From Candidatus Omnitrophota bacterium (GTDB lineage: Bacteria > Omnitrophota > Gorgyraeia > Gorgyraeales > Gorgyraeaceae), in contig JBDRJN010000017.1 of NCBI GenBank assembly GCA_043814965.1, positions 6,038 through 70,037 of the forward strand: a stretch of DNA of 64,000 nt. Direction: 5' to 3'. Shown here piece after piece: positions 27,251 through 64,000 of the stretch. The notes under the pieces are model-generated. The model did no database searches. It was not told the origin of the DNA and was given only the letters and a program-made list of their open reading frames with translations. Every line of letters starts with the position of its first letter. The first letter of the stretch is position 1. The translations under genes were made by a program, and so were the position numbers.

Positions 27251-27552
27251 TCCCCTGTAGCTCAGCTGGTAGAGCGCGTGGCTGTTGAGCGGCGAAGCGA
27301 GCGCAAAACGTTTCGCACAAAGTTAGCAGCCTCTAATGGAAACATTAGAGTGGGAAAGCGGGTAAATTCAGGGAAAGCCTATAGAGTAGGTCAATCCTGA
27401 GCCAAGTCCGCCTAGGCGGAAAGGTGCAGAGACTAGACACTCGCTGCCTAAAGCTGGAAACAGCTATGGCAAAGGTATAGTCCGACTCTCCGAGTAATCG
27501 GAGTCAGATCGTAACCACGTTGTCCGAGGTTCGAGTCCTCGCGGGGGAGCCA
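27251..27552 (+). tRNA. tRNA-Asn (anticodon GTT) interrupted by a group I intron in the anticodon loop
   Basis: Exon 1 is 27251-27285 (acceptor TCCCCTG, D-arm GCTCAGCTGGTAGAGC, anticodon stem CGTGG, loop CTGT) and exon 2 is 27512-27552 (TAA, CCACG, T-arm CGAGG/CCTCG, acceptor CGGGGGA, G, CCA). The spliced anticodon loop CTGTTAA equals the E. coli tRNA-Asn loop. Confidence 0.75.
27286..27511 (+). ncRNA. group I self-splicing intron (226 nt) in tRNA-Asn
   Basis: Matches to all four conserved core elements: P AAATTCAGGGAAAGCC, Q AATCCTGAGCC, R GTGCAGAGACTAGACA, S AAGGTATAGTCC. The 5' exon ends in U and the intron ends in G. Confidence 0.75.
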
Positions 27553-35900: not shown

Positions 35901-38900
35901 ATTCTGCCAGGCGATAAAAATAAGAAGAAAAGAGAAAAAGTCGAGGACGACATTTCGAGTTTCTTTAATGAGATTAAAAGAAAAGCTAATAGAGATGAAG
36001 AATTTGATAGATTCTTCAAAGATACAGACCATCCTGACTTACCATTTAGTTATGCATTAGGCAGCCCTGCATTAAAAGTGCCGGAACTTGAATCAGCCAA
36101 AGAGCCTATCCAGTTGGAGGCTAAAACCGAAGAAAGAAAGTATAAGACTATCGCTGAAATAACTGATGAAGTTTTATTAAAACCAATTGAATCATTGATT
36201 AAAATAGATAAAGATGGCAACCCAAGGGCTTTAACGCAGGATGAGATCCTTTTAGAATATAAAAAAGGAGCGCTTGAAGCACTTAGGACAAAGGAAGGCT
36301 ATGAAGATGAATCTGAATTAAAGCAGTGGATTTCGCTTATATTGAAAGCAATAGAATATAATGATATGGAATTTAATCATATAGAAAAGAAAGAAGGATG
36401 GTTTCTCCTGGATGAAATATCTTTTCCTAAATTAAGAGAAAGCGCCAGAAAAAATATATTAACTGCTGCTACGATCCCAAGAGATGGAAAAACCTGGGTA
36501 TTTATAAAAGAAAATATGAACCTTTATCAGGCTGCATATGCTTTAACAAAACTCTCAGGAGTTGAACAAAAAATGACAATAGTTGGTTTAGGAGAAAAAT
36601 GTACCGAAACATTAAGATCCTCAATAAGAACTGTGATCCAAGAGGCGTATAAAGAAACCAAACCTATTGAGTCCAGCGAAATAAAAGATGAAGAAAAAAA
36701 CCTTGATTTTCATAATAGATTTTTACAAAAGCTCCATTATTCTTATAAAGTAGATCCAGAGTTCAGGAAAGCAATAGATGAACTACGCGAAAAAGTTTTA
36801 AGCCAGATACATCCACAAGAAAGTGAAGCTTTTAGATTTATTACAGATAATGAAATAACCAGCTTTGCTTTGGAATTTGCCGCGCGAATAGGAGAAACCC
36901 CTCTTATAGCTGACCCATATACCAGTTGGGGTATTATAGATAATGAGAAAGACGAGCCCCATTATTTTATAAACTATTCTGAACTTTATGCAAAACATAA
37001 AAAAGCTATTGATAAATACACGCATTATTCACATTACGAATTTATTATTGATGATGGCTCGTGGAGTGGGCTTAAGGTGAAAGGCGGGATGAATTATCTA
37101 TATAATACTCTTCGCAATATTTTTACATACAATGAAATAGTAGATTTTCTTAAAAGTGAAACAAATAAAGGGCTTATCAACCCAATAGTAAAACCCTATG
37201 AAACAGAACAGTTTTTCCTTCCTAATATTGATTTTACAAGGCCAAGCGATGAGGATGCCTTTGATAATATGAATATTGATCAGCTTTTCCAGGCAGTAGA
37301 AAATATGCCTAAAGAAGAATGGGAGAAATATAAAGTCAATATATTAAACCGATATTCCTATCTTGCCCGTAAAGGAGAAATAGAGCCAGTTTTTTTTATG
37401 AAACATATCAGCGCATTAGCAAAAAAAGATGTTGATATTTTACGGGATAAACACGCAAGCTGGGCTAGCGGCCATAAATATTATTTTGATAGGGCTGAAA
37501 TAACAAGGGCAATCATTGAGACTGTTTTAAGGTCTTCTAAATCAAGTTTTTTAAATGATGATTTCCTTTTAGAATATTATTCCCAGGCTGATGAAGTAAA
37601 AGATGACGGTACATTTGTTTACTATGAAACAAAGGATTACAAAAAAACTGACGAACAAATTTCACAAGTAAATGCTATCAATCGTCTTGCCAATGGTTAT
37701 ATGGGTGAAGGCCCTATATCCAGATATCCATTATATGCATTGTCTATGATCATGAATATTTCTCCTGAACGCATAGGCCCAAAAACTATGAATTTATTTG
37801 TTGCTATGGCAGAAGCAGGCAGGGATAGATATAAGCTATATATAGGAGACGATCGTGGCTGGCTAGAAGATAGCTATGGCGTAACCCCTGTTTTTGATAT
37901 ACCAATCAGAGCTTTTGACTATCACCCTGAATATTATTCTAAACTTTTGGTTGAATCTAAAATAACCCCGGATATTTTAACTTTTCTCATCAGGCCGGAG
38001 ACTGCCCCAGGGGATAATATAGGTCTGTTTTCTTCTCTGCGAGAACCAGGAGCAGAAGAAAGGGAATACAAAAGCTTTCTTTCAGGTGAAATAATAAAAG
38101 GTTTGGTTACAGGGAATTCAGTAGAGGGCAATCAACTCAAATTATTAAAAGCTATTATCAATGATTTTTCAGCAGTTGCCAACAATACTATTCTTGAACA
38201 CTGGAGAAAGTTTAGTAAAGATGACTTAAATTCACTTTTAGGGCTTAAAACAAAAGTAGATAGTTCCATACTTGAAAAAATGGAAACCATTTTTAGCAAA
38301 GAAGGATTAGGCAATAGGGTAGTTGCTTTGTTTTTAGCAATGTATCCTGATTTTAATATAGAAACTGCCAAGGATTTGGACAAGCTTTTAAAAGATGACT
38401 CAGTTCAAACTACATTTGGCATATTAAAAGCTATTAAAGATAAATTATGGACAATAGAAGAAATCAGGGCTCTTTATAGGGCTAATCTATGGAGTTTTAC
38501 CTCAGCTAATGTAAGGCATACTAATTTAAAACAAGTGCTTAATTTATCAGAAGAAGATAAGTCAAAGCTTTTCATAGTATTATCGGGTAAAAAATTATTG
38601 CCTCAGAATATTTTCGATATTTATCCTTTAAATATTCCAAAGGATCATGCGCTTTACGATAAATATAGCCATGAATTAAAAACTTACTCAATGAGTTATT
38701 CAAGTTTTACCGGAGCGATGGAAATGGTTGCAGATTCTAAGGAACTAGAAGAAAGCGTTAAAGGTAGAGTTACGCATAGGTCAAGGCTCTTATTTAATGA
38801 CCTTGGAGCTATCTTGAAATTGCCCAGGAAAGACCTGTTGAGAAAAGTTGAACTATTGGAAAAATTCGAGACGAACAAAGTTGAATTAGACAATACTGCT

Positions 38901-54174: not shown

Positions 54175-54876
54175 TTGAATAACGAGGAGGTGGAGATGAA
54201 AAAGATCTTAAGTATCGCGTTAGTTTTTTTAGTGGCAATGTTCTTTATTGTTCCCAGTGGGTTTACGCAGGATGGCATGGAACAGCTTAAAGCAGAGAAT
54301 CAGAAGTTAAAGCAGGTTATAAGGGATCTAGAGAGAAAGCTGCAATCTATGGATCAAAGCGGATATGGCCAAGGTGGTTCTGAAGAGGCTTCTTATAGCA
54401 CAGGAAATGAGGGGAGTTATAGTGAAGGCTATACAGGTGAAGCAGGAGAGGTTTCTCAAGATATGCCGCCCAAGAGTATAGTAGATAGGCCATGGGAGAA
54501 GAAAGCAGATATTAATCAAGATGGCGTAGTAGATCAGACTGAGATGGGCCAATGGAAAGATAGGTCTCAAGGTAGAGGCAATCCTCCTGGACCTCAGGGA
54601 GGACCAGGAGCTGGCCCTAGATTTGAAGGACAGGGTAATCCTCCAGGTCCAGCTGGCGGCCCTGGTAAAGGCCCTAGGCCAGAAGGTATAAACCCTCCGG
54701 GCCCAAAAGGCGGACCAGGCGCTGGACAGAAATTTGAAGGCCGAAGCAATCCACCTGGACCAAAAGGCGGCCCTGGTAAAGGACCTAGATTCGAAGGTAA
54801 AGGCAACCCTCCAGAGCCTAAGGGCGGGCCAGGCCGAGGTAATCCTCCAGGTCTAAAAGGCGGCAAGAAACGCTAG
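54175..54876 (+). CDS. secreted protein with EF-hand/dockerin-like Ca-binding motif and five or six collagen-like GNPPGPxGGPGxGPRFEG repeats
   Basis: Signal peptide, coiled-coil segment, DINQDGVVDQTE motif, then ~19-aa Gly/Pro repeats. Confidence 0.6.
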   Translation: MNNEEVEMKKILSIALVFLVAMFFIVPSGFTQDGMEQLKAENQKLKQVIRDLERKLQSMDQSGYGQGGSEEASYSTGNEGSYSEGYTGEAGEVSQDMPPKSIVDRPWEKKADINQDGVVDQTEMGQWKDRSQGRGNPPGPQGGPGAGPRFEGQGNPPGPAGGPGKGPRPEGINPPGPKGGPGAGQKFEGRSNPPGPKGGPGKGPRFEGKGNPPEPKGGPGRGNPPGLKGGKKR

Positions 54877-54977
54877 ATAATAAATATTTTTGATAAAAAG
54901 GCTTCTCTATTTTAATATGATAGAGAGGCCTTTTTGTTGTATTGCAATATGTATATATAATTGTTATAATATAAAAA

Positions 54978-55550
54978 ATGCCTAAAGAAATAGAGACCAA
55001 ATTTAAGATAACTTCCCCGCGCGAGATAAGAACTTTACTTAAAAAGATAAAAGCTAGATTTACCATCAAACAACTGGAAAAAGATATCTATTATAAAGTT
55101 CCAGGCGCCCTTTCCAGAATAAATTCCATTAGATTAAGAAAGATAAGTAAAAAAGACGGCTTATTTACTATAAAGTCTTTGACAAAAGATAACCCCGGGG
55201 GGATATTCAAGGTGCTTGATGAAAAAGAGATGCCTATATCTGAAGTTGAAAGATTCAAAAATATACTTAAGGCTCTTGGTTTTGAAATAGCTTTTAGAAA
55301 AGAGAAAAGAAGGGAGATATATTCATATAGCTCGACAAAGATCACTTTAGATAAACTGCCTTTTATAGGGTGGTATCTGGAGATAGAAGGTTCAAAAAAT
55401 AATATAAAAAAGTTAGCAAAACTCTTATGTCTTGATATGAATAGCGCTATCCCAGGGACATATATGAGCATATTTAACGAGTATAGAAAACACCATAAAA
55501 GAAAAGACTTGGAGCTTACATTTGAAAATGAAAGACACAACTTACCTTGA
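54978..55550 (+). CDS. CYTH-domain protein (triphosphate tunnel metalloenzyme / class IV adenylate cyclase-like)
   Basis: N-terminal EIETKF motif and alternating charged beta-strands of the CYTH barrel. Confidence 0.6.
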   Translation: MPKEIETKFKITSPREIRTLLKKIKARFTIKQLEKDIYYKVPGALSRINSIRLRKISKKDGLFTIKSLTKDNPGGIFKVLDEKEMPISEVERFKNILKALGFEIAFRKEKRREIYSYSSTKITLDKLPFIGWYLEIEGSKNNIKKLAKLLCLDMNSAIPGTYMSIFNEYRKHHKRKDLELTFENERHNLP

Positions 55551-56088
55551 GCTAGTAGAACTAGCCCTAAAACATAATAAAAAGACCTTGTGTGATTTTA
55601 AGGGTAAAAGCATGGCCCCTGCATTGAAAGACGGCATGAAGGCCATGGTAGGGAATATAGCCCCTGAAGAGATAAGAAATGGGGATATAATACTTTATAG
55701 ACAAAATGCAGCATTGATCATCCATAGAGTCATAAAGATATTAAAGGAGGGCGGGGGTAAAAGGACATTTATTACCAAAGGAGATAATCACGCTTATATG
55801 GACGCAGCGTATATTCCCGAAGAAGATTTGCTAGGAAAGATCACGGGTGCTTTTTTTGAAGACAACATGGATGTAAATTTATTAATCGAAAGTAGATTTA
55901 TAGAGATTTTATATGTTATAATGGGAAACATAGCGTTACTCTTAAGAAACAATAGAAGATCCGTACCCAGCTTTATAAGAGCTATCTTTAAAAAGATAGT
56001 AGGAGGATTTTTTATAATACTTAAAAGTCTTATTCATTTTATATATATAAGGATACAAAATGGACAGATGTTATCTAGAAGACCCTAG
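55522..56088 (+). CDS. S26/S24-family peptidase (SipW/signal-peptidase-I-like)
   Basis: Nucleophile motif KGKSMAPAL (GxSMxP) and box-D-like KGDNHAY; overlaps the neighbouring genes by 29 nt on each side. Confidence 0.6.
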   Translation: MKMKDTTYLELVELALKHNKKTLCDFKGKSMAPALKDGMKAMVGNIAPEEIRNGDIILYRQNAALIIHRVIKILKEGGGKRTFITKGDNHAYMDAAYIPEEDLLGKITGAFFEDNMDVNLLIESRFIEILYVIMGNIALLLRNNRRSVPSFIRAIFKKIVGGFFIILKSLIHFIYIRIQNGQMLSRRP

Positions 56089-57208
56089 CTTATATAGAGG
56101 AAATAGTAGATATGCGTTAGGAACAGTATATCTATATTCTAAATACTGCAACCTAAAATGCAGGCACTGCTGGATAAATCCGCCTTATTCAAGCGAGAGG
56201 ACACTGAAAAAAGGTGAGATAACCCTTGATGAGATGATCCTGGTTTTGGAAGAATGTAGAGAGATAGGTATGAGGAGCGTTAAGCTCTCAGGCGGAGAGC
56301 CTTTTACAAGGCCTGATATATTTCAATTGCTAGAATACCTAAAAGAAAAAAAACTTGGTATAACTATAGAGACCAATGGCATTGCTATAAGAGAAAAAGA
56401 GGCTAAGGCATTGAAAGATGCTGGGGCAGGACACGTAGCTATATCACTGGATGGCCCTACTGCCGAGATGCATGAAAATATAAGAGGGGTTGAGGGTTCT
56501 TTCGAAGATACATTAGAAGGGATCAGGTATATCAAAAAGGAAGGCCTTAACTTACAGATCATAATCTCTCTCTGGAAGGGCAACAAGGATCACATAAAGT
56601 CCACTATTAATCTCGCAAAAGCGCTTGGAGCGAATTCAGTAAAGATAAATCCTATCAATAGCATTGCCCGGGCAGACATAATGCATGAAAGAGAAGAGGC
56701 ATTGAGCGTGAGGGAGACTATAGAGTTTTACAGGTCTCTCAGGGAAGGCCTCAAGAAAGAGCCAAAAATAAATGTGATATTTGATATCCCCCCTGTCTTT
56801 AGGCCATTTATAAATATGAGATTAGAAAGTCTTTGCGTGTGCGGCATCTTTAATATACTCGGCATATTAGGTGACGGGAGGGTCTCTATATGCGGCATAG
56901 GCTCTAGCTCCGAGACGCTCATTTTAGGAAAAGTTGGTAAAGACAGCATTAAAGACATCTGGGAAAACCACCCTGTATTAAAAGAGATCAGAGTTAATAT
57001 ACCTGGCAAACTGGAAGGGATCTGCGGGAGATGTATATTTAAGACATATTGCCTTGGTAAATGCAGGGCTGAGGCGTATTATACGAGCGGTTCACTCCTA
57101 GCGCCGTTAACGTTTTGTGAAGTCGCGTATAAAGAAGGGATGTTTCCTGAGTCGAGGATAATTAATAATATCAAAGATCAAAATGTAAAAAGCAAAATTA
57201 CAAATTAA
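56060..57208 (+). CDS. radical SAM / SPASM-domain peptide-modifying enzyme 1
   Basis: CNLKCRHC (Cx3Cx2C), GGEPF, and a C-terminal Cys-rich SPASM region (CVCG...CGIG...CGRC...CLGKC). Confidence 0.8.
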   Translation: MDRCYLEDPSLYRGNSRYALGTVYLYSKYCNLKCRHCWINPPYSSERTLKKGEITLDEMILVLEECREIGMRSVKLSGGEPFTRPDIFQLLEYLKEKKLGITIETNGIAIREKEAKALKDAGAGHVAISLDGPTAEMHENIRGVEGSFEDTLEGIRYIKKEGLNLQIIISLWKGNKDHIKSTINLAKALGANSVKINPINSIARADIMHEREEALSVRETIEFYRSLREGLKKEPKINVIFDIPPVFRPFINMRLESLCVCGIFNILGILGDGRVSICGIGSSSETLILGKVGKDSIKDIWENHPVLKEIRVNIPGKLEGICGRCIFKTYCLGKCRAEAYYTSGSLLAPLTFCEVAYKEGMFPESRIINNIKDQNVKSKITN

Positions 57209-57300
57209 AATTCAAAAATAAATTTTCTAAAAAAAGGGATTTATAATTTTAAATTTTTATATGTAATTTTGATATTTAATCTTTAATATTTGATTTTATT

Positions 57301-57567
57301 ATGAGAATAAGGCAATCTAAAAATGTGTTAGTAGCTGATTTCGACGATAAAAAAGTAGTACTTAATACTGATAGTTATAAGCCATATCTATTAAATCCTA
57401 CTGCATCCGAGGCCTGGGATCTTTGTAAGACTTTGAAAAAGAAAAGTGATATAGTGGATTTTTTATCAAAAGAATACAAAGTAGATATTAAAAAAGTAAG
57501 GATAGATGTAAAAAGTTTGATAAATGACCTTAAAAAAGCAGGACTTATAAAAACTATTAAGAGGTAG
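57301..57567 (+). CDS. PqqD-family protein (RiPP recognition element-like peptide chaperone)
   Basis: PqqD pattern ..VVLNTDSYKPYLLNPTASEAWDL..SDIVDFLSKEY.VD..KVRIDV..LINDLKKAGLI. Confidence 0.65.
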   Translation: MRIRQSKNVLVADFDDKKVVLNTDSYKPYLLNPTASEAWDLCKTLKKKSDIVDFLSKEYKVDIKKVRIDVKSLINDLKKAGLIKTIKR

Positions 57568-57569
57568 AT

Positions 57570-58910
57570 ATGAAAAATGCTCTATTAAAGCGAAACCAAA
57601 AGATCATATTCAATGAAGAAGACGATATAGGCCTGCTTTTTAATCCTGACTCTGGACGCGTAAATACGCTTAACGAGACAGGTAAATTCATCTGGTCCAG
57701 GCTTGATGGTAAGACTACAAAAGAAAGAATAGTAGATGAAGTCTCGGAAGAGTTTGATATAGAAGACAAGGAAATAGTAAAAAACGACCTCGATAAGTTT
57801 ATAAATGAATTAGGAATGTCAAATTTCATAGAAGATTATATATATATCCCTCCCTTGCAGGGGATGTGTTTTGGGATCACCTCGCTCTGTAACCTGAGCT
57901 GCAAGCATTGCTTAAATAGAAATCTAGGGGAGCAGGAACTTGATATGACAACTGAAAAGCTCCTTAGTGTTATAGATGAGATGTATGAAATAGGCATAAG
58001 GAGTTTGAGCTTATTTGGGGGAGAGCCATTGGCTCATCCTGATTTTAAAAAAATAGTCGAGTATCTAAATGGAAAAAATATGAATATTTCTTTAAATACA
58101 AATGCATCTTTAATAGATCTTGATATGGCGAAGTGGCTAAAAGAGCATAAAGTTAATGGCACAGTAGTTAGTTTTGACGGCTCAAATGCTTTTATAATGG
58201 ATGAGATGAGAGGAAAAGGCGCGTTTCAGGCTGCTATAAAAGGCATAAAGGCTTTAAGGAGTGAAGGTATAAATGTAATGCTCTCAGCGACATTAAATAA
58301 GATCAATTTTAGGGATATTAGAGAGATGGCCCTTTTAGGAAAAGAGATAGGAGGCAACTCCATACGTTTTAATCATGTTTTTTTCGCAGGTAATTCAGCT
58401 TGTTTTGTAAAAGATATATATCTTAACCCCCAAGAAGAGAAAGAGGCAGTTGAAAGCGTATTTAAAATGAAAGAAGAGTTCGGAGATTTTATAAATCAGT
58501 CAAGCTCTTACTTGTGCCAGAAGCAAAAGCTTGATAAAGTCAAAGACTATAAGCCGTCTATCGATAAGATAACTATACCTTCGTGCGGGGCTGCGATGTC
58601 AAAGTGCGCTATAAGGCCTGACGGATGGGTAGTGCCATGTGAGATAATATGGCATGTAAAGGCAGGGAATCTTAAAGAAAGATCCTTAAAAGAGATCTGG
58701 GAAGGATCAAGCGTTATGAACTCTTTTAGAAAGCCGCTCGAGATAGACCTAAATGAGATACCAGAATGCAAAGGATGTAAATATCAGTATCTATGTTTTA
58801 TAGGCCACCGCTGTTACCCGTATCATTACCCTGGCGGGATAAAGAATAAGGCCCTATATTGCTGGAAAAATGACAAAAAGGGGACAGACACCTTTTTTCT
58901 AAATATATAA
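57570..58910 (+). CDS. radical SAM / SPASM enzyme 2 with an N-terminal fused PqqD-like (RRE) domain
   Basis: N-terminal ~90 aa are PqqD-like (LLFNPDSGRVNTLNETGKFIWSRLDG), followed by CNLSCKHC, GGEPL, and SPASM cysteines (CGAAMSKC...PC...CKGCKYQYLC). Confidence 0.8.
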   Translation: MKNALLKRNQKIIFNEEDDIGLLFNPDSGRVNTLNETGKFIWSRLDGKTTKERIVDEVSEEFDIEDKEIVKNDLDKFINELGMSNFIEDYIYIPPLQGMCFGITSLCNLSCKHCLNRNLGEQELDMTTEKLLSVIDEMYEIGIRSLSLFGGEPLAHPDFKKIVEYLNGKNMNISLNTNASLIDLDMAKWLKEHKVNGTVVSFDGSNAFIMDEMRGKGAFQAAIKGIKALRSEGINVMLSATLNKINFRDIREMALLGKEIGGNSIRFNHVFFAGNSACFVKDIYLNPQEEKEAVESVFKMKEEFGDFINQSSSYLCQKQKLDKVKDYKPSIDKITIPSCGAAMSKCAIRPDGWVVPCEIIWHVKAGNLKERSLKEIWEGSSVMNSFRKPLEIDLNEIPECKGCKYQYLCFIGHRCYPYHYPGGIKNKALYCWKNDKKGTDTFFLNI

Positions 58911-58952
58911 AATATAAAAATAAAAAGGTGTCTGTCCCCTTTTTAAAAGCAT

Positions 58953-59408
58953 ATGACAAAACAAAAAAAATCCCAAAAAAAAGAATATAAAGCGCCTACT
59001 GTATCAGACTTATTCGGAGCTAATATAAGGCCAGCATTGGGAGGCACTCAGCCGTGTACGCTTGGCGGTGATGTTAATTGTAATCTAGGTGTTACGGCAT
59101 ATGGTTATTGTAATGATGGCCAAGATGCTAACGGAGACTTTTGTCAGGTAGGAACTGGTGCTACTGGCGGTGTTTGCTATGGCGGGAATTTTGTTTCAGG
59201 ATATTGCCAAGTAGGAACTTCTGCTACGGATAAATGTGTCTCAGGCCAGGATCCGACTACTTTATGCGGCGCAGGTATTGGTGTTTATGCTGGGGATTGC
59301 TATACAGGTACTGTTGCGTCACAAGGACTGTGCGGACCAGGAGATCTTGCTGCCACTTGTGCTGGCGGCACCAGTGTCAGCGGTTGCTTGGTAGGATCAC
59401 CTATTTAG
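58953..59408 (+). CDS. candidate RiPP precursor: 151-aa Gly-rich protein with ~11 tandem decapeptide repeats, each ending in Cys, and no signal peptide
   Basis: Lys-rich N-terminal ~35 aa (leader-like), then repeats such as NLGVTAYGYC / QVGTGATGGVC / YGGNFVSGYC / QVGTSATDKC / VSGQDPTTLC, giving 14 Cys. An RBS-like AAAAAGG lies upstream. Confidence 0.55.
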   Translation: MTKQKKSQKKEYKAPTVSDLFGANIRPALGGTQPCTLGGDVNCNLGVTAYGYCNDGQDANGDFCQVGTGATGGVCYGGNFVSGYCQVGTSATDKCVSGQDPTTLCGAGIGVYAGDCYTGTVASQGLCGPGDLAATCAGGTSVSGCLVGSPI

Positions 59409-59419
59409 AAAAGGGGATC

Positions 59420-60250
59420 ATGCCTAAAGATAATGCAAAAATAATAAAGATCTCTGGATTATCATTGGTTCTAAGAGAAAAAGATAAGATAATACCTTCA
59501 ACTTTTAATAGATTTTTCTATAAAAAACAAAATATACCAGATAATAGCTGGCATCTAGAATCTATAGATCAAGGCATTAAAAGGCCAAAAGATATTATCT
59601 TGCCAGAGACATTGGATGTGCGTAAACTTCTAAAGCCGCAGTCGTATTTTAATAAGAATACATTTATAAATATCAAGGCAAAAAGAATAAAGCATCTTTA
59701 TTCAGATAAATATGAAAAAAATAATAAATATTATGATACAAAGCTGTTTTCTTTTTGTTATTCTCAAATGCTGGCTTCAGAAAATGGCCTGCTCCTGCAT
59801 GGTTCAGCTGTCATCAAAGGTAATTCAGCGTATTTATTTTTTGCGCCTTCCGGGGGAGGCAAGACCACAGCTGCAAAGCTCTCTAGAAGATCCAAGGTAT
59901 TAGGGGATGATGTAGTAGCGCTTAAAAAATGTGGAAGATCCTATTATGTATATTCAACACCATGGAACCATAAAGATTTTACGCGTAATAGCAGTATTAG
60001 CGCAAAGGTAGACAAGGTATTTTTTCTAAAAAAGTCTAAAAATATATCCTTTAAGCCAATAAAAAAAGAAGACGCGTTCATAAAATTACTTACCCAGCAG
60101 ATACATTTTTTTATATATACCAAAAGGCCTATACTGGATAAACTTTTTTTTACAGCGTCTGGTTTTATCAAAAACACTGAAACTTACGAGATGAAGTTTA
60201 GGAAAGATAAATCATTTTGGAATAAATTAAATAAAGAGGTGCTGCGATGA
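59420..60250 (+). CDS. HprK-related kinase (HPr kinase C-terminal-domain-like P-loop protein)
   Basis: LLLHGSAVIKGNSAYLFFAPSGGGKTTAA matches the HprK C-domain P-loop. Start set at the Met at 59420 with an AAGGGGAT RBS; the track ORF's upstream extension overlaps the precursor gene out of frame. Confidence 0.55.
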   Translation: MPKDNAKIIKISGLSLVLREKDKIIPSTFNRFFYKKQNIPDNSWHLESIDQGIKRPKDIILPETLDVRKLLKPQSYFNKNTFINIKAKRIKHLYSDKYEKNNKYYDTKLFSFCYSQMLASENGLLLHGSAVIKGNSAYLFFAPSGGGKTTAAKLSRRSKVLGDDVVALKKCGRSYYVYSTPWNHKDFTRNSSISAKVDKVFFLKKSKNISFKPIKKEDAFIKLLTQQIHFFIYTKRPILDKLFFTASGFIKNTETYEMKFRKDKSFWNKLNKEVLR

Positions 60251-61851
60251 AGACCAATACGATTGTCATTATAGTGATAGCGATGATCCTGGTAATAGTA
60301 TATTTTTCTATACCGCCTTTAGGTATATACGCTAATGACGGGGGTACAAAGTATATACAGATGAAAAGTTTCTATCTCAATCACTGGAAAAGGCTTGATA
60401 TAGATTATCCAGGCCAGGAACTGGGGCTTAGCTATAGCTATCTAAATCCTGTCAGGTCTTTTAAAGTAATGGATAATAAGCTATTTATAACCTGTTCCCC
60501 TCTTTTTACGTATTTAACTAGTTTAGTTTATCCGTTTCTAGGTGATAGAGGGATACTCTTTTTCCCTCTATTATCTTTTTTTATAAGTATTATTTTATTT
60601 TTAAAGATACTGGATATGTTATTAGAAAAATGTATTTTTTACTATATCCTGGTAGCATCGTTTTTGATAGGATCGCCAGTTTATTTATATAGCATTATTT
60701 TCTGGGAACATCTCCCAGCAGTATGTTTAGTGATGTTAAGCCTTTATTATATAACCAGGTATTTTAAAAAAGAAAAAAGTTCATTAGATATATTCTTGAG
60801 CGCTTTTTTTCTGGGAAGTTCTCTTTTTTTCAGGACAGGTATGTGGGCGCTTATAACAGGATACCTGTCCTTTCTAAGCTATGTATTTATAAAAAAGAAT
60901 GAGTTTAAATATATCATAGCCATGTTATTAGGATTTACTGTGCCTATAGCCGCATATTTTTTATCAAACTTGGTATTTTATGGGCATCTCCTGGGGCTTC
61001 ATGCAACAAGCCATCTACCGTATAATTTTTCCTTGAAGAAGGCCTTGGTATCTAGCGCGATTTTATTTACAGGCTATATAGTAGTAGGTTTATTGAATAA
61101 AAGTAATGATAAAAGATCTCTTATAAAATTTTATTATCTACTAAATTTTATATTGATATCTGTATTATTAGGTTTATTTATAAATTCTCCGATCAGAAGT
61201 CTTGTTACTACATTTCCGCTTATCATCATGATCTTTTATGGTATAGGCGAGAATATAGAAGAGTTATTCAGCAGCAAGCCTGAGTTAAGGCATTTTCTAT
61301 TAAGCACAGTTATTATTTATATTTCTTTGGTTACAATATTTCTTTTCAATAATCCTGATACTAGCATAAGGTATCTTCTCCCAGCTGTACCTATTGCGCT
61401 GATTTTTATTGGAGTCATCTCAAAAGAAGCCATGGTATTTAAGCCTTTTTACATACTCACGGCGTTATTAGTAATATTCTCTTTTACTGTAAATCTTTCT
61501 GAGCTTAGAAAAACAGTATTGGGATGTAAGTACTATAACTATAAAAGGGTCGAGTTTCTTAAAGAGAATACAAAAGATAAAGACGTAGTGATATTCCAGG
61601 CCAATCCTCTCATGGAACATGCTGGGCCTTTATACTTTGAACGTGTCTATATAGTAAGCAAAAACAATGGACGCGATACAAAAGATATATTGGATACTCT
61701 TAAAGAAAAAGGCATTCAATATTGTTATTATTGGACGATGTATAAGGAATTTAAAGAAATTTTTTTAAAAGATACGGAATATAAAATAGATAAGTACGAA
61801 TTTAAAGTAGAAAATTCCCCTACTCATTATTTATTAAGGATAAAATTATAA
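60247..61851 (+). CDS. large polytopic membrane protein (12 or more TM helices; possible GT-C-like or peptide-processing membrane enzyme)
   Basis: Hydrophobicity pattern only. Confidence 0.4.
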   Translation: MKTNTIVIIVIAMILVIVYFSIPPLGIYANDGGTKYIQMKSFYLNHWKRLDIDYPGQELGLSYSYLNPVRSFKVMDNKLFITCSPLFTYLTSLVYPFLGDRGILFFPLLSFFISIILFLKILDMLLEKCIFYYILVASFLIGSPVYLYSIIFWEHLPAVCLVMLSLYYITRYFKKEKSSLDIFLSAFFLGSSLFFRTGMWALITGYLSFLSYVFIKKNEFKYIIAMLLGFTVPIAAYFLSNLVFYGHLLGLHATSHLPYNFSLKKALVSSAILFTGYIVVGLLNKSNDKRSLIKFYYLLNFILISVLLGLFINSPIRSLVTTFPLIIMIFYGIGENIEELFSSKPELRHFLLSTVIIYISLVTIFLFNNPDTSIRYLLPAVPIALIFIGVISKEAMVFKPFYILTALLVIFSFTVNLSELRKTVLGCKYYNYKRVEFLKENTKDKDVVIFQANPLMEHAGPLYFERVYIVSKNNGRDTKDILDTLKEKGIQYCYYWTMYKEFKEIFLKDTEYKIDKYEFKVENSPTHYLLRIKL

Positions 61852-61853
61852 AT

Positions 61854-63668
61854 ATGGAAGATCGGATCATAAAAAAGGATTTTGAGAAAGTGACTCTAGA
61901 GACCATTAAAGAGTCTTTTAGGCTTTTCTCCAGGTTTAATAAGTTTATCTTACGTTATTGGAAGATAGAGCTGATACTGCTTATGGTAGGAAATATCTCT
62001 ATGATCTTTGGCTTGATAAATCCTTATATAGGAAAGATCGTCCTTGATAGGGGTATCCTCGGGAGAGACATGGAGGTATTCATAAGATATACGATATTCG
62101 CAGGTATTATATATCTTATGAATATGGGTATAGGGACCGGAGCTGGCTATTTAAGTGCTTATGTCTCAAGAAAGATCAGGATCGACCTTACAAAGGTTGT
62201 ATTTAGAAAGATAAGAAAACTTTCTTTAAAGTTTTTTCAAGAACGCTCTACCGGGGAATATATCTTTAGGATGAATAGCGATATATCCAGCGCAGCTGGT
62301 ATAATAATAAATACGCTTCCGAACGTAATACTGACTTTTTTAAAGTTGATCTTTGTAACAATAGTTATTTGTTTTATTAATTGGAAAATACTGCTCTTGG
62401 TCTTAGTCTACCATGTCATGACGATAATAAGGATGAGATTTTTTATAGACAAGATGCAGGAATTGAAAAAAGAAGGGTTAGAGAAAGCGCAGTATATATT
62501 TAAAGTGCTGGGTGAATTTTTTTCGCATATTTATTTTGTAAAGTCTTCAGGCACTATGGGCCGCATGGTAAAAAAATATTTTCACGCGCTTAGCGACAAT
62601 ATAAGGATAGAGATAAAGAATTATAGATTTGGGATTCTTTCTGGATTTGCAAGCAGTATCCCTAATAAGCTATTCTATGGGACTATTAGTATTGTAGGCA
62701 CTATCATGGTGATAAAGGGCCGCATTACCCTGGGAACTCTAGGCGCGATCATGGCATATTTATCTCAAGGTATAGGGGCGTATGGGGCGGTATTAGGCCT
62801 TGGGAACAACATGATCATGAATCGCATATCACTAAAACGGCTGACAGAGCTGCTAGACGCCAAAGTTGATGTAGAAGAAAGCCCAGATGCTAAATTTATT
62901 GATTTTAAAAATGCGAGTATTGAATTTAAGAATGTATCTTTTGGTTATGAAGAAGGTAAGGATGTTTTAGAGAATATCAGTTTTTCGGTTCCTCCAAGAT
63001 CTAAAATTGCGCTTATAGGGCATTCAGGGTGCGGCAAGACCACTATCTTAAACTTGATATTGAGGTTATATGATGTAAAAAGCGGTGAAGTATGTTTAGG
63101 GGGCTACAATATAAAAGACTTGAAGTTTAAGTCTATACATAGCCAGGTAAGCATGGCTCTTCAGAGCCAATTTTTGTGGAATGAAAGCATAAGGGATAAC
63201 ATCAGTTATCTAAACCCAAGCATAAGTGAAGATGAATTAAGGCATATTGCAAAGATGGTTGAACTCGATACTTTTATAGAGGAGTTTCCGGATAAATACG
63301 ATACTATATTAGGCGAAGAAGCTTGCAAGATCTCCCAAGGCCAGAGGCAGCGCCTTGCAATAGCAAGAACTCTGGCTAAAAGACCAAGGATCTTGATGCT
63401 GGATGAGGCGTTTTCATCAATTGATTCAGAGACAGAGGATAAGATAGTCAATAATATAAAAAATTATTTTAAAGATTCAACGATTATCTTGGTGTCTCAC
63501 AGGCTTTCAGCTGTAAAGAATATGGATATAGTATATTTTCTAGAAGGCCAGGGTAAGATGTCCATAGGTAAGCACCATGAACTTGTAAAAGACAATCTTA
63601 ACTATAGAAAATTATTTGCCAGTCAGATCGAAAAAGAATTAGAAGAGATCTTAACGTCAAAAGAGTGA
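61854..63668 (+). CDS. ABC exporter, fused TMD-NBD
   Basis: 6-TM domain, Walker A GHSGCGKTT, signature LSQGQRQR, Walker B LMLDEAFSSID. Confidence 0.8.
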   Translation: MEDRIIKKDFEKVTLETIKESFRLFSRFNKFILRYWKIELILLMVGNISMIFGLINPYIGKIVLDRGILGRDMEVFIRYTIFAGIIYLMNMGIGTGAGYLSAYVSRKIRIDLTKVVFRKIRKLSLKFFQERSTGEYIFRMNSDISSAAGIIINTLPNVILTFLKLIFVTIVICFINWKILLLVLVYHVMTIIRMRFFIDKMQELKKEGLEKAQYIFKVLGEFFSHIYFVKSSGTMGRMVKKYFHALSDNIRIEIKNYRFGILSGFASSIPNKLFYGTISIVGTIMVIKGRITLGTLGAIMAYLSQGIGAYGAVLGLGNNMIMNRISLKRLTELLDAKVDVEESPDAKFIDFKNASIEFKNVSFGYEEGKDVLENISFSVPPRSKIALIGHSGCGKTTILNLILRLYDVKSGEVCLGGYNIKDLKFKSIHSQVSMALQSQFLWNESIRDNISYLNPSISEDELRHIAKMVELDTFIEEFPDKYDTILGEEACKISQGQRQRLAIARTLAKRPRILMLDEAFSSIDSETEDKIVNNIKNYFKDSTIILVSHRLSAVKNMDIVYFLEGQGKMSIGKHHELVKDNLNYRKLFASQIEKELEEILTSKE

Positions 63669-64000
63669 TACCTCAAAATCATAAGAATAAAATCCTCGCT
63701 TCCACAGAAGAACTTATAGCTATTTGTATGAGGCATGAAGCTAGTAGCTATAAGGAAGAAATATTAGATCTGATACAGGGTGGCATTGACTGGGGTCTTT
63801 TAAGTAAGCTAGCTTGTGAAAAAGGCATAGCCTCACTTACGTACAAGGCTTTAAAGTTTTATGCGCCAGCTGGCCTCACACAAAAAGAGAACCTGGATAT
63901 ATTAAAGACATCCTACCTTATCTCATCCACAAAAAATAATTTTTATAAAAAAGAATTAAAGAATATACTAAGTATTCTCTACGAAAAGAATATTCCTATT
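63665..64000 (+). CDS. partial (3'-truncated by the window) protein, possibly a PF14907-type nucleotidyltransferase
   Basis: The open frame continues to the window end; the N-terminal pattern resembles the uncharacterised nucleotidyltransferase family that often pairs with HprK-like kinases in RiPP clusters. The start is uncertain (GTG at 63665 or ATG at ~63728). Confidence 0.35.
   Translation, partial: MIPQNHKNKILASTEELIAICMRHEASSYKEEILDLIQGGIDWGLLSKLACEKGIASLTYKALKFYAPAGLTQKENLDILKTSYLISSTKNNFYKKELKNILSILYEKNIPI

What the first reader, a model, noticed from the sequence alone, without database searches (positions are those of the whole stretch)
54978..64000. Candidate novel RiPP-type peptide-modification operon: two rSAM/SPASM enzymes, PqqD, a Cys-repeat substrate, HprK-like kinase, S26 peptidase, CYTH, membrane enzyme and ABC exporter
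Ten co-directional genes are packed with 4-29-nt overlaps. They are CYTH, an S26-like peptidase, rSAM-SPASM 1, free PqqD, PqqD-rSAM-SPASM 2, a 151-aa Cys-terminated repeat protein, an HprK-like P-loop kinase, a 534-aa polytopic membrane protein, an ABC exporter and a probable PF14907 nucleotidyltransferase. SPASM maturases plus a PqqD/RRE are the hallmark of sactipeptide, ranthipeptide, mycofactocin and PQQ-type pathways. HprK-like kinase and nucleotidyltransferase pairs occur as tailoring enzymes in lasso and other RiPP clusters. The combination with a multi-repeat Gly/Cys substrate, a CYTH domain and an S26 peptidase does not match any described RiPP class I know. It could make a multiply thioether-crosslinked, phosphorylated or nucleotidylated, exported peptide.
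Basis: partly seen in the sequence, partly recalled or inferred. Interest (0 to 1): 0.8.

Follow-up and report, generated by a model that had tools for sequence, protein, structure and literature searches.

The report
Radical-SAM peptide-modification operon, Scm-like
This is a real operon for making a heavily modified, exported peptide from a 151-residue precursor with twelve Cys-x-x-Gly repeats; it is a large, decorated relative of the computationally defined but chemically uncharacterised "SynChlorMet" cassette rather than something wholly new.

Summary
The ten co-directional genes exist as described. Profile searches confirm CYTH, an S26B/SipW-type signal peptidase, two radical-SAM/SPASM enzymes (one with a fused PqqD), a free PqqD, an HprK-like P-loop protein, an ABC exporter without a peptidase domain, and a truncated PF14907 gene. 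The 534-aa membrane protein is a GT-C-fold glycosyltransferase.

The 151-aa ORF is a genuine precursor. It has a K-Y-x-x-P leader and 12 Cys spaced 8-11 residues apart, each followed by Gly at +3 (0 of 200,000 shuffles reach this).

The system is not unprecedented. The best NCBIfam hits are ScmF, ScmE, ScmD and ScmC of the SynChlorMet cassette, all below the curated cut-offs. About 178 precursor cluster representatives share the leader and the 10-11-residue unit C-x2-3-G-x2-A. Reached by three independent routes, these relatives sit next to PqqD, rSAM/SPASM, ScmC and S24 genes.

CYTH is not conserved in any related locus. The ABC exporter, PF14907 and GT-C genes are accessory.

I found no experimental study of this family. 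The likely product is an exported peptide with one cross-link per repeat, probably a thioether, plus phospho- or glyco-tailoring. That chemistry is inferred, not shown.

Verdict: a new variant of a known kind, of moderate to high interest.

The parts
54900..54939 (+). Terminator-like hairpin that ends the upstream 233-aa gene: an 11-bp stem with one G-U pair, a 9-nt loop, then TTTTTGTTG. It marks the 5' boundary of the transcription unit.
   Evidence: Read directly from the sequence. The scanner missed it because it allows loops of at most 8 nt.
54942..54970 (+). Best sigma-70-like promoter match in the region: TTGCAA, 17-nt spacer, TATAAT with an extended TG. It lies 8 nt before the CYTH start codon.
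   Evidence: 10 of 12 matches, the top + strand site. It is a consensus match only, in AT-rich DNA.
54978..55550 (+). CYTH / class IV adenylate-cyclase-like protein of 190 aa. It is the first gene of the operon here but is not conserved in related clusters.
   Evidence: PF01928 at E 6e-17; TIGR00318 at 63.8 bits, above the 57.95 cut-off. There is no homologue in 20 related loci. It overlaps the next gene by 29 nt.
55522..56088 (+). S26B (archaeal/SipW-type) signal peptidase I homologue of 188 aa, the probable leader peptidase. It has Ser30 (SMAP), His68 (HRV) and GDN87. There is no N-terminal membrane anchor; the hydrophobic segment is at the C-terminus.
   Evidence: TIGR02228 at 73.1 bits, above the 51.85 cut-off; PF00717 at E 1e-6. 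It is conserved in 16 of 20 related loci.
56060..57208 (+). Radical SAM/SPASM enzyme 1 (ScmF-like, 382 aa): CX3CX2C at residue 30 and a full seven-Cys SPASM motif.
   Evidence: PF04055 at E 2e-29 and PF13186. TIGR04251 ScmF at 339 bits (cut-off 400), against a next-best hit of 173 bits. The closest solved structure is PqqE, 6c8v, at E 4e-17.
57301..57567 (+). Stand-alone PqqD/RRE protein of 88 aa, an extra paralogue found with this order only in the Omnitrophota clusters.
   Evidence: PF05402 at E 4e-14. The best NCBIfam hit is the lasso-type PqqD NF033536, at 50 bits and below its cut-off. Orthologues occur in L001, L003 and L004.
57570..58910 (+). PqqD-fused radical SAM/SPASM enzyme 2 (ScmE-like, 446 aa). 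The N-terminal PqqD domain corresponds to the separate ScmD of canonical cassettes.
   Evidence: PF05402 at E 3e-16, PF04055 at E 1e-24 and PF13186 at E 8e-11. TIGR04250 ScmE at 166 bits (cut-off 400). ScmD-type proteins from distant loci match this N-terminus better than the free PqqD. The closest solved structure is SkfB, 6efn.
58953..59054 (+). Leader region of the precursor (residues 1-34): Lys-rich N-terminus and the motif KEYKAPTVSDLFG, which is the family motif K-[YW]-x-x-P-x-[LIV]-x-D-[LF].
   Evidence: Alignment A2. [YWF]xxP is present in 147 of 147 short family members.
59055..59408 (+). Core region of the precursor (residues 35-151) plus the stop codon. It has 12 Cys at spacings of 8-11 residues. 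Each Cys is followed by Gly at +3 and by Ala, Val, Pro or Ile at +6. The C-terminus is CLVGSPI.
   Evidence: 12 of 12 Cys have Gly at +3, and 0 of 200,000 shuffles reach 12. Syntenic Cys-repeat ORFs occur in L001, L003 and L004. AF2 gives pLDDT below 50 across the core.
59420..60250 (+). HprK-like P-loop protein (ScmC-like, 276 aa). The Walker A motif is PSGGGKTT, and the upstream His and downstream DD motif are conserved.
   Evidence: Alignment A1: invariant G147, K148, T150 and D164, with H127 nearly invariant. The profile against PDB hits HPr kinase 2qmh and 1jb1 best, at E 6e-7 over 56 residues. Weak hits: TIGR04249 ScmC at E 2.5e-5 and PEPCK_ATP at E 6e-4.
60247..61851 (+). GT-C-fold integral-membrane glycosyltransferase of 534 aa, with at least 9 hydrophobic segments and a C-terminal soluble domain. 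It is an accessory gene.
   Evidence: NF047440 at E 4e-48, 164 bits (cut-off 200). The AF2 model has pLDDT 80 and pTM 0.82. The top 22 Foldseek PDB hits are all GT-C enzymes: STT3, AglB, PglB, ArnT, ALG9/12, DPY19 and PMT. Homologues lie in Scm-like clusters L003 and L020 and beside a PqqD and an rSAM-S24 fusion in L018.
61854..63668 (+). ABC exporter of 604 aa, a fused transmembrane domain and nucleotide-binding domain, with no N-terminal C39 peptidase domain.
   Evidence: PF00664 and PF00005. The alignments to the HlyB and NHLM models start at model positions 121 and 157, so the peptidase domain is missing.
63665..64000 (+). 5' part of a PF14907 (NTP_transf_5) nucleotidyltransferase-like gene, cut off by the end of the window. 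Its GTG start overlaps the ABC stop codon (GTGA).
   Evidence: PF14907 at E 5e-4 on the 111-aa fragment. The full-length orthologues in L001 and L004 score E 3e-49 and 5e-48.

Best explanation
This is an operon for a ribosomally synthesised, radical-SAM-modified, exported peptide (RiPP). It belongs to the same superfamily as the SynChlorMet (Scm) cassette.

Shown:
- The gene set and the family relationships.
- The precursor family and its architecture.

Inferred pathway:
1. The 151-aa protein is the substrate. Its leader (K-Y-K-A-P-T-V-S-D-L-F) is bound by the PqqD/RRE domains, one free and one fused to rSAM2.
2. The ScmF-like and ScmE-like rSAM/SPASM enzymes act repeatedly on the 117-residue core, one event per roughly 10-residue unit C-x-x-G-x-x-[A/V/P/I]-x-x-x. 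The most likely reaction joins each Cys sulfur to a carbon of a residue a few positions downstream, within the same unit. That would be a sactionine- or ranthionine-type thioether and would give a string of about 12 small rings.
3. The HprK-like ScmC homologue, a core gene of the family, phosphorylates a Ser or Thr of the peptide.
4. The PF14907 enzyme may add a sugar to that phosphate, as reported for phosphoglycosylated lasso peptides.
5. The anchor-less S26B peptidase removes the leader somewhere between the K-Y-x-x-P motif and the first Cys.
6. The ABC transporter exports the product.
7. The GT-C enzyme may glycosylate it, or an envelope partner, from a lipid-linked sugar on the outer face of the membrane.

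CYTH is a lineage-specific passenger of unknown role.

The confidence of 0.8 is for 'an rSAM-dependent RiPP operon of the Scm superfamily with this ORF as the precursor'. For thioethers specifically it is about 0.45.
For: Domains.

Homology to Scm:
- The best NCBIfam hits for four genes are ScmF, ScmE, ScmD and ScmC.
- L009 passes all four Scm cut-offs and has the same order: PqqD, rSAM, rSAM, Cys-repeat ORF, ScmC, S24.
- The precursors in L010 and L012 weakly hit the ScmA model.

Precursor:
- Syntenic Cys-repeat ORFs with the same leader lie between rSAM2 and the HprK-like gene in L001, L003 and L004.
- A six-frame regex scan of 20 loci plus the whole window finds such ORFs almost only beside the rSAM genes.
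- Searches starting from the precursor lead back to PqqD, rSAM/SPASM, ScmC, PF14907 and ABC genes.
- There are 178 family representatives. Of the 147 short ones among the 150 listed, 147 have the [YWF]xxP leader, 498 of 622 Cys-Cys gaps are 10 or 11 residues, and 748 of 769 Cys have Gly at +3 or +4.
- The tail after the last Cys is usually 6-9 residues. This suggests each Cys works with the residues downstream of it.

Other points:
- The rSAM enzymes' closest solved relatives are the peptide-modifying SPASM enzymes PqqE, SkfB and CteB.
- Thioether formation is the commonest chemistry of rSAM/SPASM enzymes on Cys-containing RiPP precursors (PMC10114670).
- HprK homologues phosphorylate lasso precursors, and a nucleotidyltransferase then glycosylates the phosphate (PMC8498205).
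- The core of the precursor has no confident predicted fold, as expected for a RiPP substrate.
Against: - No product chemistry is known for any member of this family. I found no paper on it.
- All Scm model scores are below the curated cut-offs.
- SPASM enzymes also catalyse C-C and C-O cross-links, epimerisation and Cys-to-formylglycine oxidation, so thioethers are only the leading guess.
- A 117-residue core with 12 sites is far larger than any characterised sacti- or ranthipeptide.
- The role of a second rSAM is unexplained, and several relatives have only the ScmF-type enzyme.
- The kinase's target site is unknown. Ser or Thr after the Gly is frequent but not conserved.
- A signal-peptidase homologue acting on a leader with no hydrophobic signal region is unorthodox.
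- Many clusters abut exopolysaccharide export genes, which may point to a non-antibiotic role.
Confidence: 0.8

Rival explanations
1. The operon and precursor are the same, but the chemistry is different. The rSAM enzymes would not make Cys thioethers. Alternatives are C-C or C-O cross-links, epimerisation, or oxidation of Cys as in the anaerobic sulfatase maturases. Another option is that the HprK-like kinase phosphorylates the Ser or Thr after each Gly, and elimination followed by Cys addition gives lanthionine-like links.
For: - SPASM enzymes catalyse many reactions (PMC10114670).
- The nearest annotated families after Scm are AhbD/NirJ, PqqE, MftC and WgkB, none of which forms thioethers.
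- anSME appears among the solved relatives.
- The kinase-like ScmC is a core gene, present in 15 of 20 loci.
- In the four Omnitrophota precursors, Thr or Ser occupies +4 in 19 of 41 units.
Against: - Cys is the one invariant residue of every unit. SkfB, CteB and StsB-type thioether synthases are also among the relatives.
- No lyase or cyclase for a lanthionine route is present; every gene in the cluster is accounted for.
- The Ser or Thr is not conserved across the family.
Confidence: 0.3
2. The Cys-repeat protein is not an rSAM substrate. It would be a secreted or surface structural repeat protein (disulfide-rich, or a matrix or exopolysaccharide-associated peptide). The rSAM, PqqD and kinase genes would then act on something else.
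For: - Scm-like clusters adjoin PEP-CTERM/XrtA-type polysaccharide export genes in L001, L004, L011, L012 and L014, and a priming glycosyltransferase in L020.
- A GT-C glycosyltransferase lies inside the operon.
- The repeat is strikingly regular.
Against: - There is no Sec signal. The N-terminus is Lys-rich and carries a conserved K-Y-x-x-P motif typical of RRE-bound leaders.
- The ORF is always adjacent to PqqD and rSAM/SPASM genes, whichever gene the search starts from.
- AF2 predicts no fold.
- PqqD domains are peptide-binding chaperones of RiPP pathways.
Confidence: 0.05
3. It is a tailored lasso-peptide cluster: a PqqD B1 protein, an HprK-type kinase, a PF14907 enzyme and an ABC exporter.
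For: - The free PqqD's best NCBIfam hit is the lasso-type PqqD.
- HprK and nucleotidyltransferase pairs are known lasso tailoring enzymes (PMC8498205).
- The leader has a Y-x-x-P motif resembling lasso leaders; that resemblance is from memory.
Against: - No lasso cyclase (asparagine-synthetase-like) and no B2 transglutaminase-type protease is present in the cluster. None is found in the complete orthologous clusters L001, L003 and L004, which run on into unrelated genes.
- The lasso PqqD score of 50 bits is below its cut-off of 80.
- A 117-residue core is incompatible with a lasso fold.
Confidence: 0.02
4. It makes a peptide-derived redox cofactor, like PQQ or mycofactocin, rather than an exported peptide.
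For: PqqE is the closest solved relative of rSAM1. A PqqD protein is present. MftC and PqqE appear among the NCBIfam hits.
Against: - The PqqE and MftC scores are 94-123 bits, against cut-offs of 381 and 265.
- The precursor has 3-13 repeated sites in different relatives, unlike single-site cofactor precursors.
- The operon includes a dedicated exporter, a leader peptidase and a periplasmic-face glycosyltransferase.
Confidence: 0.03

Closest known systems
SynChlorMet (Scm) cassette: NCBIfam/TIGRFAMs TIGR04248 ScmD, TIGR04249 ScmC, TIGR04250 ScmE, TIGR04251 ScmF, TIGR04252 ScmA. This is an in-silico system with no characterised product that I could find.
   Same: - The core parts list is the same: a PqqD protein, two PqqE-like rSAM/SPASM enzymes, an HprK-like ScmC and a short Cys-repeat precursor. 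In the loci examined there is also a SipW-type S24/S26 peptidase.
- The leader motif and the 10-11-residue C-x2-3-G-x2-A unit are the same.
   Different: - All window proteins score below the Scm cut-offs: 339 of 400, 166 of 400, 26 of 100 and 24 of 125 bits. The precursor does not hit ScmA.
- PqqD is fused to the ScmE-like enzyme, and a second free PqqD is present.
- The precursor is 151 aa with 12 Cys, against the usual 60-90 aa with 4-6 Cys. That is the highest Cys count among the 147 relatives listed.
- The ABC exporter, PF14907, GT-C and CYTH genes are additions.
Ranthipeptides and sactipeptides made by rSAM/SPASM enzymes: PapB/freyrasin, CteB/SCIFF, SkfB, AlbA.
   Same: - An rSAM/SPASM maturase with an RRE/PqqD domain acts on a Cys-rich precursor.
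- Freyrasin has several repeated short Cys motifs, each forming its own small thioether ring. That detail is from memory of Precord et al. 2019. The enzyme class is reviewed in PMC10114670.
- SkfB and CteB are among the closest solved relatives.
   Different: - Sequence similarity is low: PapB model 73 bits against a cut-off of 340, and AlbA 73-82 against 850.
- The repeat unit is different, the core is much longer, and a kinase-like core gene is present.
- Thioethers have not been demonstrated here.
Phosphorylated and phosphoglycosylated lasso peptides: paeninodin (PadeK) and pseudomycoidin (PsmK and PsmN).
   Same: An HPr-kinase homologue and a PF14907-type nucleotidyltransferase sit in one RiPP cluster with a PqqD protein and an ABC exporter. 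In those systems the kinase phosphorylates the precursor's C-terminal Ser, and the nucleotidyltransferase adds hexose to the phosphate (PMC8498205).
   Different: - No lasso cyclase or B2 protease is present.
- The kinase-like gene here is a core family gene rather than an optional tailoring gene.
- Its similarity to HprK is limited to about 56 residues around the P-loop.
SipW / archaeal-type (S26B) signal peptidase I.
   Same: It passes the TIGR02228 cut-off and keeps the Ser (SMxP), His (HRV) and GDN boxes.
   Different: It has no N-terminal membrane anchor, and its presumed substrate has no hydrophobic signal sequence. Its role as a RiPP leader peptidase is inferred.
GT-C glycosyltransferases: STT3/AglB/PglB oligosaccharyltransferases, ArnT, PMT and DPY19.
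   Same: The predicted fold matches: Foldseek probability 1.0 and TM-score 0.40-0.54 against these enzymes only. An invariant Asp31 lies just after the first transmembrane helix, where GT-C enzymes carry their catalytic Asp; that placement is from memory.
   Different: There is no detectable sequence similarity to any Pfam family or PDB chain. Only the uncharacterised NF047440 family is hit, below its cut-off. The acceptor is unknown.

Membership tests
SynChlorMet (Scm) cassette, NCBIfam equivalogs | ScmF rSAM/SPASM: TIGR04251 score of at least 400 bits | tested here: not met
   339.2 bits at E 3e-101. It is the best hit by far, with the next at 173 bits. The control locus L009 scores 448.7.
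SynChlorMet (Scm) cassette, NCBIfam equivalogs | ScmE rSAM/SPASM: TIGR04250 score of at least 400 bits | tested here: not met
   166.3 bits. It is the best hit, but only modestly above AhbD at 132. L009 scores 469.
SynChlorMet (Scm) cassette, NCBIfam equivalogs | ScmD PqqD-like protein: TIGR04248 score of at least 100 bits | tested here: not met
   The free PqqD scores 26 bits. The fused N-terminal PqqD of rSAM2 is the closer counterpart by BLAST but was not scored separately against the model.
SynChlorMet (Scm) cassette, NCBIfam equivalogs | ScmC: TIGR04249 score of at least 125 bits | tested here: not met
   23.8 bits at E 2.5e-5. L009 scores 160.6. Homology is supported by alignment A1.
SynChlorMet (Scm) cassette, NCBIfam equivalogs | ScmA precursor: TIGR04252 score of at least 35 bits | tested here: not met
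   The window protein gives no hit at E up to 10. The L012 and L010 precursors score about 16 bits. The shared leader and repeat unit are shown in other ways.
Scm-like superfamily (my operational definition) | A precursor with a K-[YW]-x-x-P leader and at least 3 Cys at 10-11-residue spacing with Gly at +3 or +4, encoded next to a PqqD protein and an ScmF-type rSAM/SPASM enzyme | tested here: met
Sactipeptide / ranthipeptide RiPPs | An rSAM enzyme with CX3CX2C and a SPASM or twitch auxiliary-cluster domain | tested here: met
   Both enzymes qualify.
Sactipeptide / ranthipeptide RiPPs | An RRE/PqqD domain and a Cys-containing precursor in the cluster | tested here: met
Sactipeptide / ranthipeptide RiPPs | Cys sulfur to carbon thioether cross-links in the product | not testable with these tools
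   This needs mass spectrometry and NMR of the modified peptide.
Lasso peptides | A lasso cyclase (asparagine-synthetase homologue) and a B2 transglutaminase-like leader protease | tested here: not met
   No such domain is present in any cluster gene here or in the complete orthologous clusters L001, L003 and L004. The roughly 8 kb of contig beyond the window was not seen.
PQQ / mycofactocin cofactor pathways | PqqE (at least 381 bits) or MftC (at least 265 bits) equivalog, plus a single-site precursor | tested here: not met
   PqqE scores 110 and 94 bits; MftC scores 110 and 123 bits. The precursor has 12 repeated sites.
HPr kinase/phosphorylase-like P-loop kinases | A Walker A P-loop preceded by a conserved His and followed by the DD motif, in the HprK/PEPCK arrangement | tested here: met
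   The profile of 12 homologues against PDB hits HprK 2qmh and 1jb1 at E 6e-7 over 56 residues. PEPCK is also hit. Kinase activity was not tested.
GT-C glycosyltransferases | The GT-C membrane fold | tested here: met
   AF2 gives pLDDT 80 and pTM 0.82. The top 22 PDB matches are all GT-C enzymes.

The most novel reading that the evidence does not exclude
The Scm-like family, with this operon as its most elaborate member, makes a RiPP class that has never been described chemically. The product would be a long 'beads-on-a-string' peptide in which every roughly 10-residue C-x-x-G-x-x-A unit is closed into its own small ring by radical SAM chemistry. Here that means 12 rings on a 117-residue core, which is then phosphorylated or glycosylated and exported. 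The recurrent adjacency to PEP-CTERM/XrtA-type polysaccharide export genes and the embedded GT-C enzyme suggest a role as a cell-envelope or matrix component rather than as an antibiotic.
Probability: 0.3. Interest if true: 0.8.

Novelty: new variant of a known kind. Interest (0 to 1): 0.58.

Why it matters
- The SynChlorMet-type cassette has stood in protein-family databases for over a decade, with no product, chemistry or function that I could find.
- This analysis gives the family a clear precursor signature: the leader K-[YW]-x-x-P-x-L and a 10-11-residue unit C-x2-3-G-x2-A. About 178 cluster representatives share it, from Omnitrophota, Desulfobacterales, Kapabacteria and other anaerobes.
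- It also defines a conserved core: PqqD, an ScmF-type rSAM/SPASM enzyme, an HprK-like ScmC and a SipW-type peptidase.
- The window's operon is the extreme case, with 12 repeats, two RRE domains, and PF14907, GT-C and ABC genes. That makes it a good candidate for heterologous reconstitution.
- If each repeat is a separate ring-forming unit, the system would be a modular, copy-number-tunable scaffold. It would also be a rare case of a kinase-like protein acting as a core RiPP enzyme.
- The link to exopolysaccharide loci, if real, would widen the known roles of RiPPs.

Tried and rejected
Literature:
- Searches for SynChlorMet, ScmF, the TIGR accessions, HprK with SPASM, ranthipeptide with HPr kinase, and ScmA/C/D/E found nothing relevant.
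- Haft and Basu 2011 (PMC3133131) is not held in the library.

Recovering the rest of the contig:
- The source contig is 72 kb, and I tried to reach the part beyond base 64000.
- Exact-protein look-ups for three window proteins failed.
- An exact 36-mer scan of the metagenome contigs found nothing.
- The 3' end of the cluster is therefore inferred from L001 and L004.

Searches that added nothing:
- A single-sequence search with the precursor found only the protein itself. The alignment-based searches were needed.
- Pfam and PDB sequence searches on the membrane protein gave nothing. Structure prediction resolved it.
- The local Pfam copy lacks PF27840 (ScmC), which the precomputed annotations do show.

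Tests that came out negative or weak:
- AF2 on the precursor, run to test a folded beta-solenoid or disulfide-repeat alternative, gave pLDDT 44. The alignment was shallow, so this is only weak evidence.
- N-x-S/T sequons as the GT-C target: rejected. The window core has none, while L001, which lacks the GT-C gene, has three.

Readings rejected: a lasso-peptide cluster and a cofactor pathway; see the rival explanations.

CYTH as a system component: rejected on conservation, being absent from all 20 related loci.

Full report
OBSERVATION

The region 54978-64000 holds ten consecutive + strand ORFs as described.

- CYTH: PF01928 at E 6e-17. It also passes the class IV adenylate cyclase model TIGR00318.
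- Peptidase: an S24/S26-clan enzyme that passes the archaeal/SipW-type signal peptidase I model TIGR02228 (73 bits, cut-off 51.85). It keeps the Ser (SMAP), His (HRV) and GDN boxes.
- Two radical SAM enzymes: both have CX3CX2C and complete SPASM Cys motifs.
- PqqD: one free protein, and one domain fused to the N-terminus of the second rSAM.
- ABC exporter: it lacks a C39 peptidase domain.
- Final truncated ORF: a weak PF14907 hit at E 5e-4. Its full-length orthologues in related loci score E 3e-49 and 5e-48.

The 'HprK-like' call rests on a profile of 12 homologues. Its best PDB matches are HPr kinase structures at E 6e-7. The match spans 56 residues covering a conserved His, the P-loop and the DD motif, whereas generic P-loop matches cover only about 25 residues. 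The real start of this gene is the ATG at 59420, behind an AAGGGG ribosome-binding site, not the longer ORF from 59234.

Gene junctions are four overlaps (29, 29, 4 and 4 nt) and five short gaps (2-92 nt). Co-directionality means little here, because nearly the whole window is + strand. A hairpin with a T-run (54900-54939) and the best promoter-like site (54942-54970) lie just upstream of CYTH, so the unit probably starts there.

THE PRECURSOR

The 151-aa ORF has a Lys-rich N-terminus with KEYKAPTVSDLFG. It then has 12 Cys spaced 8-11 residues apart. Every Cys is followed by Gly at +3 and by Ala, Val, Pro or Ile at +6. In 200,000 shuffles of the core, none reached 12 of 12 for Gly at +3; the maximum was 10.

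It is a real gene. In the three orthologous Omnitrophota clusters (L001, L003, L004), a Cys-repeat ORF with the same K-Y-x-P-P leader occupies the same slot between rSAM2 and the HprK-like gene. Across the four precursors, 40 of 41 Cys have Gly at +3.

WHAT IT IS RELATED TO

NCBIfam gives the SynChlorMet cassette families as best hits for four genes. The scores are ScmF 339 bits, ScmE 166, ScmD 26 and ScmC 24, all below the curated cut-offs of 400, 400, 100 and 125.

A scan of one genome per species with rSAM1 returned 12 loci. One of them, the Desulfobacterales MAG locus L009, passes all four Scm cut-offs. Its gene order is PqqD, ScmE, ScmF, a 65-aa Cys-repeat ORF, ScmC, then an S24 peptidase. 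The precursors in L010 and L012 weakly touch the ScmA precursor model.

The window's operon is therefore a distant, expanded relative of a system that curators defined computationally. I found no paper describing its product.

THE FAMILY, TESTED FROM THREE DIRECTIONS

1. Starting from rSAM1: Cys-repeat ORFs with the leader K-[YW]-x-x-P-x-[LIV] lie next to the rSAM genes in L001, L003-L006 and L009-L012.
2. Their contigs carry PqqD, rSAM/SPASM, PF27840 ScmC, S24, PF14907 and ABC genes.
3. Starting from the 534-aa membrane protein: its homologues lie in another full Scm-like cluster, L020, which has a 96-aa precursor. They also lie beside a PqqD gene and an rSAM-S24 fusion in L018.

A profile search of 1.84 billion representatives found 178 proteins at E up to 0.001. 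Statistics on the 147 short ones among the 150 listed:

| Feature | Count |
|---|---|
| Members with the [YWF]xxP leader | 147 of 147 |
| Cys-Cys gaps of 10 or 11 residues | 498 of 622 |
| Cys with Gly at +3 or +4 | 748 of 769 |
| Core Cys per protein | 3 to 12, mode 5 |

The window protein has the highest Cys count. The consensus units are C-x-x-G(92%)-x-x-A(65%)-x-x-x and its 11-residue variant. The tail after the last Cys is usually 6-9 residues.

A six-frame regex scan of all 20 loci plus the 64-kb window hits almost only these ORFs.

CORE AND ACCESSORY GENES

Presence across the 20 fetched loci, which represent about 16 distinct loci:

| Gene | Loci with it |
|---|---|
| ScmF-type rSAM/SPASM | essentially all (only a weak match, E 6e-08, in L018/L019) |
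| PqqD | 18 of 20 |
| S24 peptidase | 16 of 20 |
| HprK/ScmC | 15 of 20 |
| ABC exporter | 11 of 20 |
| PF14907 | 7 of 20 |
| GT-C membrane protein | 4 of 20 |
| CYTH | 0 of 20 |

CYTH is thus a lineage-specific addition, although it overlaps the peptidase gene by 29 nt here.

In the Omnitrophota clusters, the ScmD equivalent is fused to the ScmE-like enzyme. The free PqqD is an extra paralogue.

THE MEMBRANE PROTEIN

No Pfam or PDB sequence match exists. There is only a sub-threshold hit to the uncharacterised NF047440 'putative glycosyltransferase' family.

An AlphaFold2 model built from 10 homologues has pLDDT 80 and pTM 0.82. Its top 22 PDB matches are exclusively GT-C glycosyltransferases: STT3, AglB, PglB, ArnT, ALG9/12, DPY19, PMT and Aft. 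It is therefore a lipid-linked-sugar glycosyltransferase acting at the outer face of the membrane. Its acceptor is unknown.

MECHANISM

Shown:
- The parts list.
- The precursor architecture.
- The family relationships.

Inferred:
- RRE domains bind the leader.
- The rSAM/SPASM enzymes act once per repeat. The most likely product is a thioether between each Cys and a residue a few positions downstream in its own unit. Three observations support this:
  - Cys is the only invariant residue of the unit.
  - The last Cys always keeps a tail of 6-9 residues.
  - Thioether formation is the dominant chemistry of SPASM enzymes on Cys-rich precursors (PMC10114670), and the solved relatives include SkfB and CteB.
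- The HprK-like protein phosphorylates the peptide and PF14907 elaborates the phosphate. This is by analogy with paeninodin and pseudomycoidin (PMC8498205).
- The S26B peptidase has no N-terminal anchor and acts on a leader without a signal-type hydrophobic region. It is taken to be the leader peptidase.
- The ABC protein exports the product.
- The GT-C enzyme may glycosylate it outside the cytoplasm.

AF2 finds no fold for the core (pLDDT 44). This is consistent with a disordered substrate, though the evidence is weak.

I put about 0.8 on 'an rSAM-dependent RiPP operon of the Scm superfamily with this ORF as the precursor'. I put about 0.45 on thioethers specifically.

RIVALS

- Different chemistry on the same precursor is the main rival (about 0.3).
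- A lasso cluster is excluded because no cyclase or B2 protease is present here or in the complete orthologous clusters.
- A cofactor pathway does not fit a multi-site precursor, an exporter and a periplasmic-face glycosyltransferase.
- A purely structural repeat protein does not fit the RRE-type leader or the invariable adjacency to PqqD and rSAM genes.

NOVELTY AND SCORE

The kind is known: rSAM/SPASM RiPP clusters in general, and the Scm cassette in silico in particular. This operon falls outside every Scm equivalog threshold. It has the largest precursor of the family, a fused plus a free RRE, and extra PF14907, GT-C, ABC and CYTH genes. The family's chemistry is uncharacterised.

I rate it a new variant of a known kind, with interest about 0.58. 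A RiPP specialist would find it worthwhile, and it is directly testable. It is not a categorical surprise.

LIMITS

- The window ends inside the PF14907 gene, and the remaining roughly 8 kb of the contig could not be retrieved.
- All chemistry is inference.

Noticed in passing
window 27251-27552 (+); intron about 27286-27511: A full-length group I intron (Rfam RF00028, 73 bits, gathering score 50) interrupts a tRNA gene in the anticodon loop. Removing 27286-27511 gives a clean 76-nt cloverleaf that ARAGORN calls tRNA-Asn(GTT). ARAGORN on the unspliced DNA misses it. I did not check how unusual an intron-containing tRNA-Asn is in bacteria.
   Followed up: partly
L001 16553-20187; L004 18915-21111; L011, L012 and L014 upstream genes (for example L014 608-7319); L020 1-955: Scm-like cassettes repeatedly sit next to polysaccharide export genes of the PEP-CTERM/XrtA type. 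These include Wza-like exporters, GNVR tyrosine autokinases, an XrtA-associated ATPase, an EpsL-like outer-membrane protein, Wzy_C, and a priming glycosyltransferase. This is seen in two Omnitrophota and several Desulfobacterales loci. The best hits are mostly below the model cut-offs, and no statistical test of the adjacency was made. It may hint at an envelope or matrix role.
   Followed up: partly
L004 7248-10001 and 13456-15828: This Omnitrophota single-cell genome carries an enlarged version of the cluster. It has a second S24 peptidase, a second HprK-like gene, a third PqqD, a third rSAM/SPASM gene, and a 790-aa fusion of an rSAM domain with an HprK-like domain. Its precursor is 166 aa with 13 Cys.
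   Followed up: partly
L005 12078-12938 and 13026-15604: The Kapabacteria cluster encodes four tandem precursor paralogues with the leader Y-C-x-P-E-V-V-D-F-K-W-M. It also has a 286-aa ORF whose N-terminus (SYPKSGNTW) looks like a sulfotransferase PAPS-binding motif. No family hit was obtained for that ORF.
   Followed up: no
window 54175-54876 (+): Directly upstream of the operon lies a 233-aa protein with a hydrophobic N-terminal segment that looks like a signal peptide or membrane anchor. It has about six repeats of the type GNPPGPKGGPGKGPRFEG and no family match. A terminator-like hairpin separates it from the operon, and it is absent from related loci.
   Followed up: partly
window 29994-40355 (+): A single ORF of 3453 aa. 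It was not analysed.
   Followed up: no
L018 9004-9954: A 316-aa protein annotated with both Radical_SAM and Peptidase_S24/S26 domains. It lies between a PqqD gene and a GT-C homologue of the window's membrane protein. No Cys-repeat ORF was detected nearby. It may be a reduced or different system that shares these parts.
   Followed up: no
L002 3534-5284: In this Omnitrophota locus only the S24 peptidase and the ScmF-like rSAM are present. PqqD, the precursor and the kinase were not detected, and unrelated large secreted proteins follow. It is possibly a decayed cluster.
   Followed up: no
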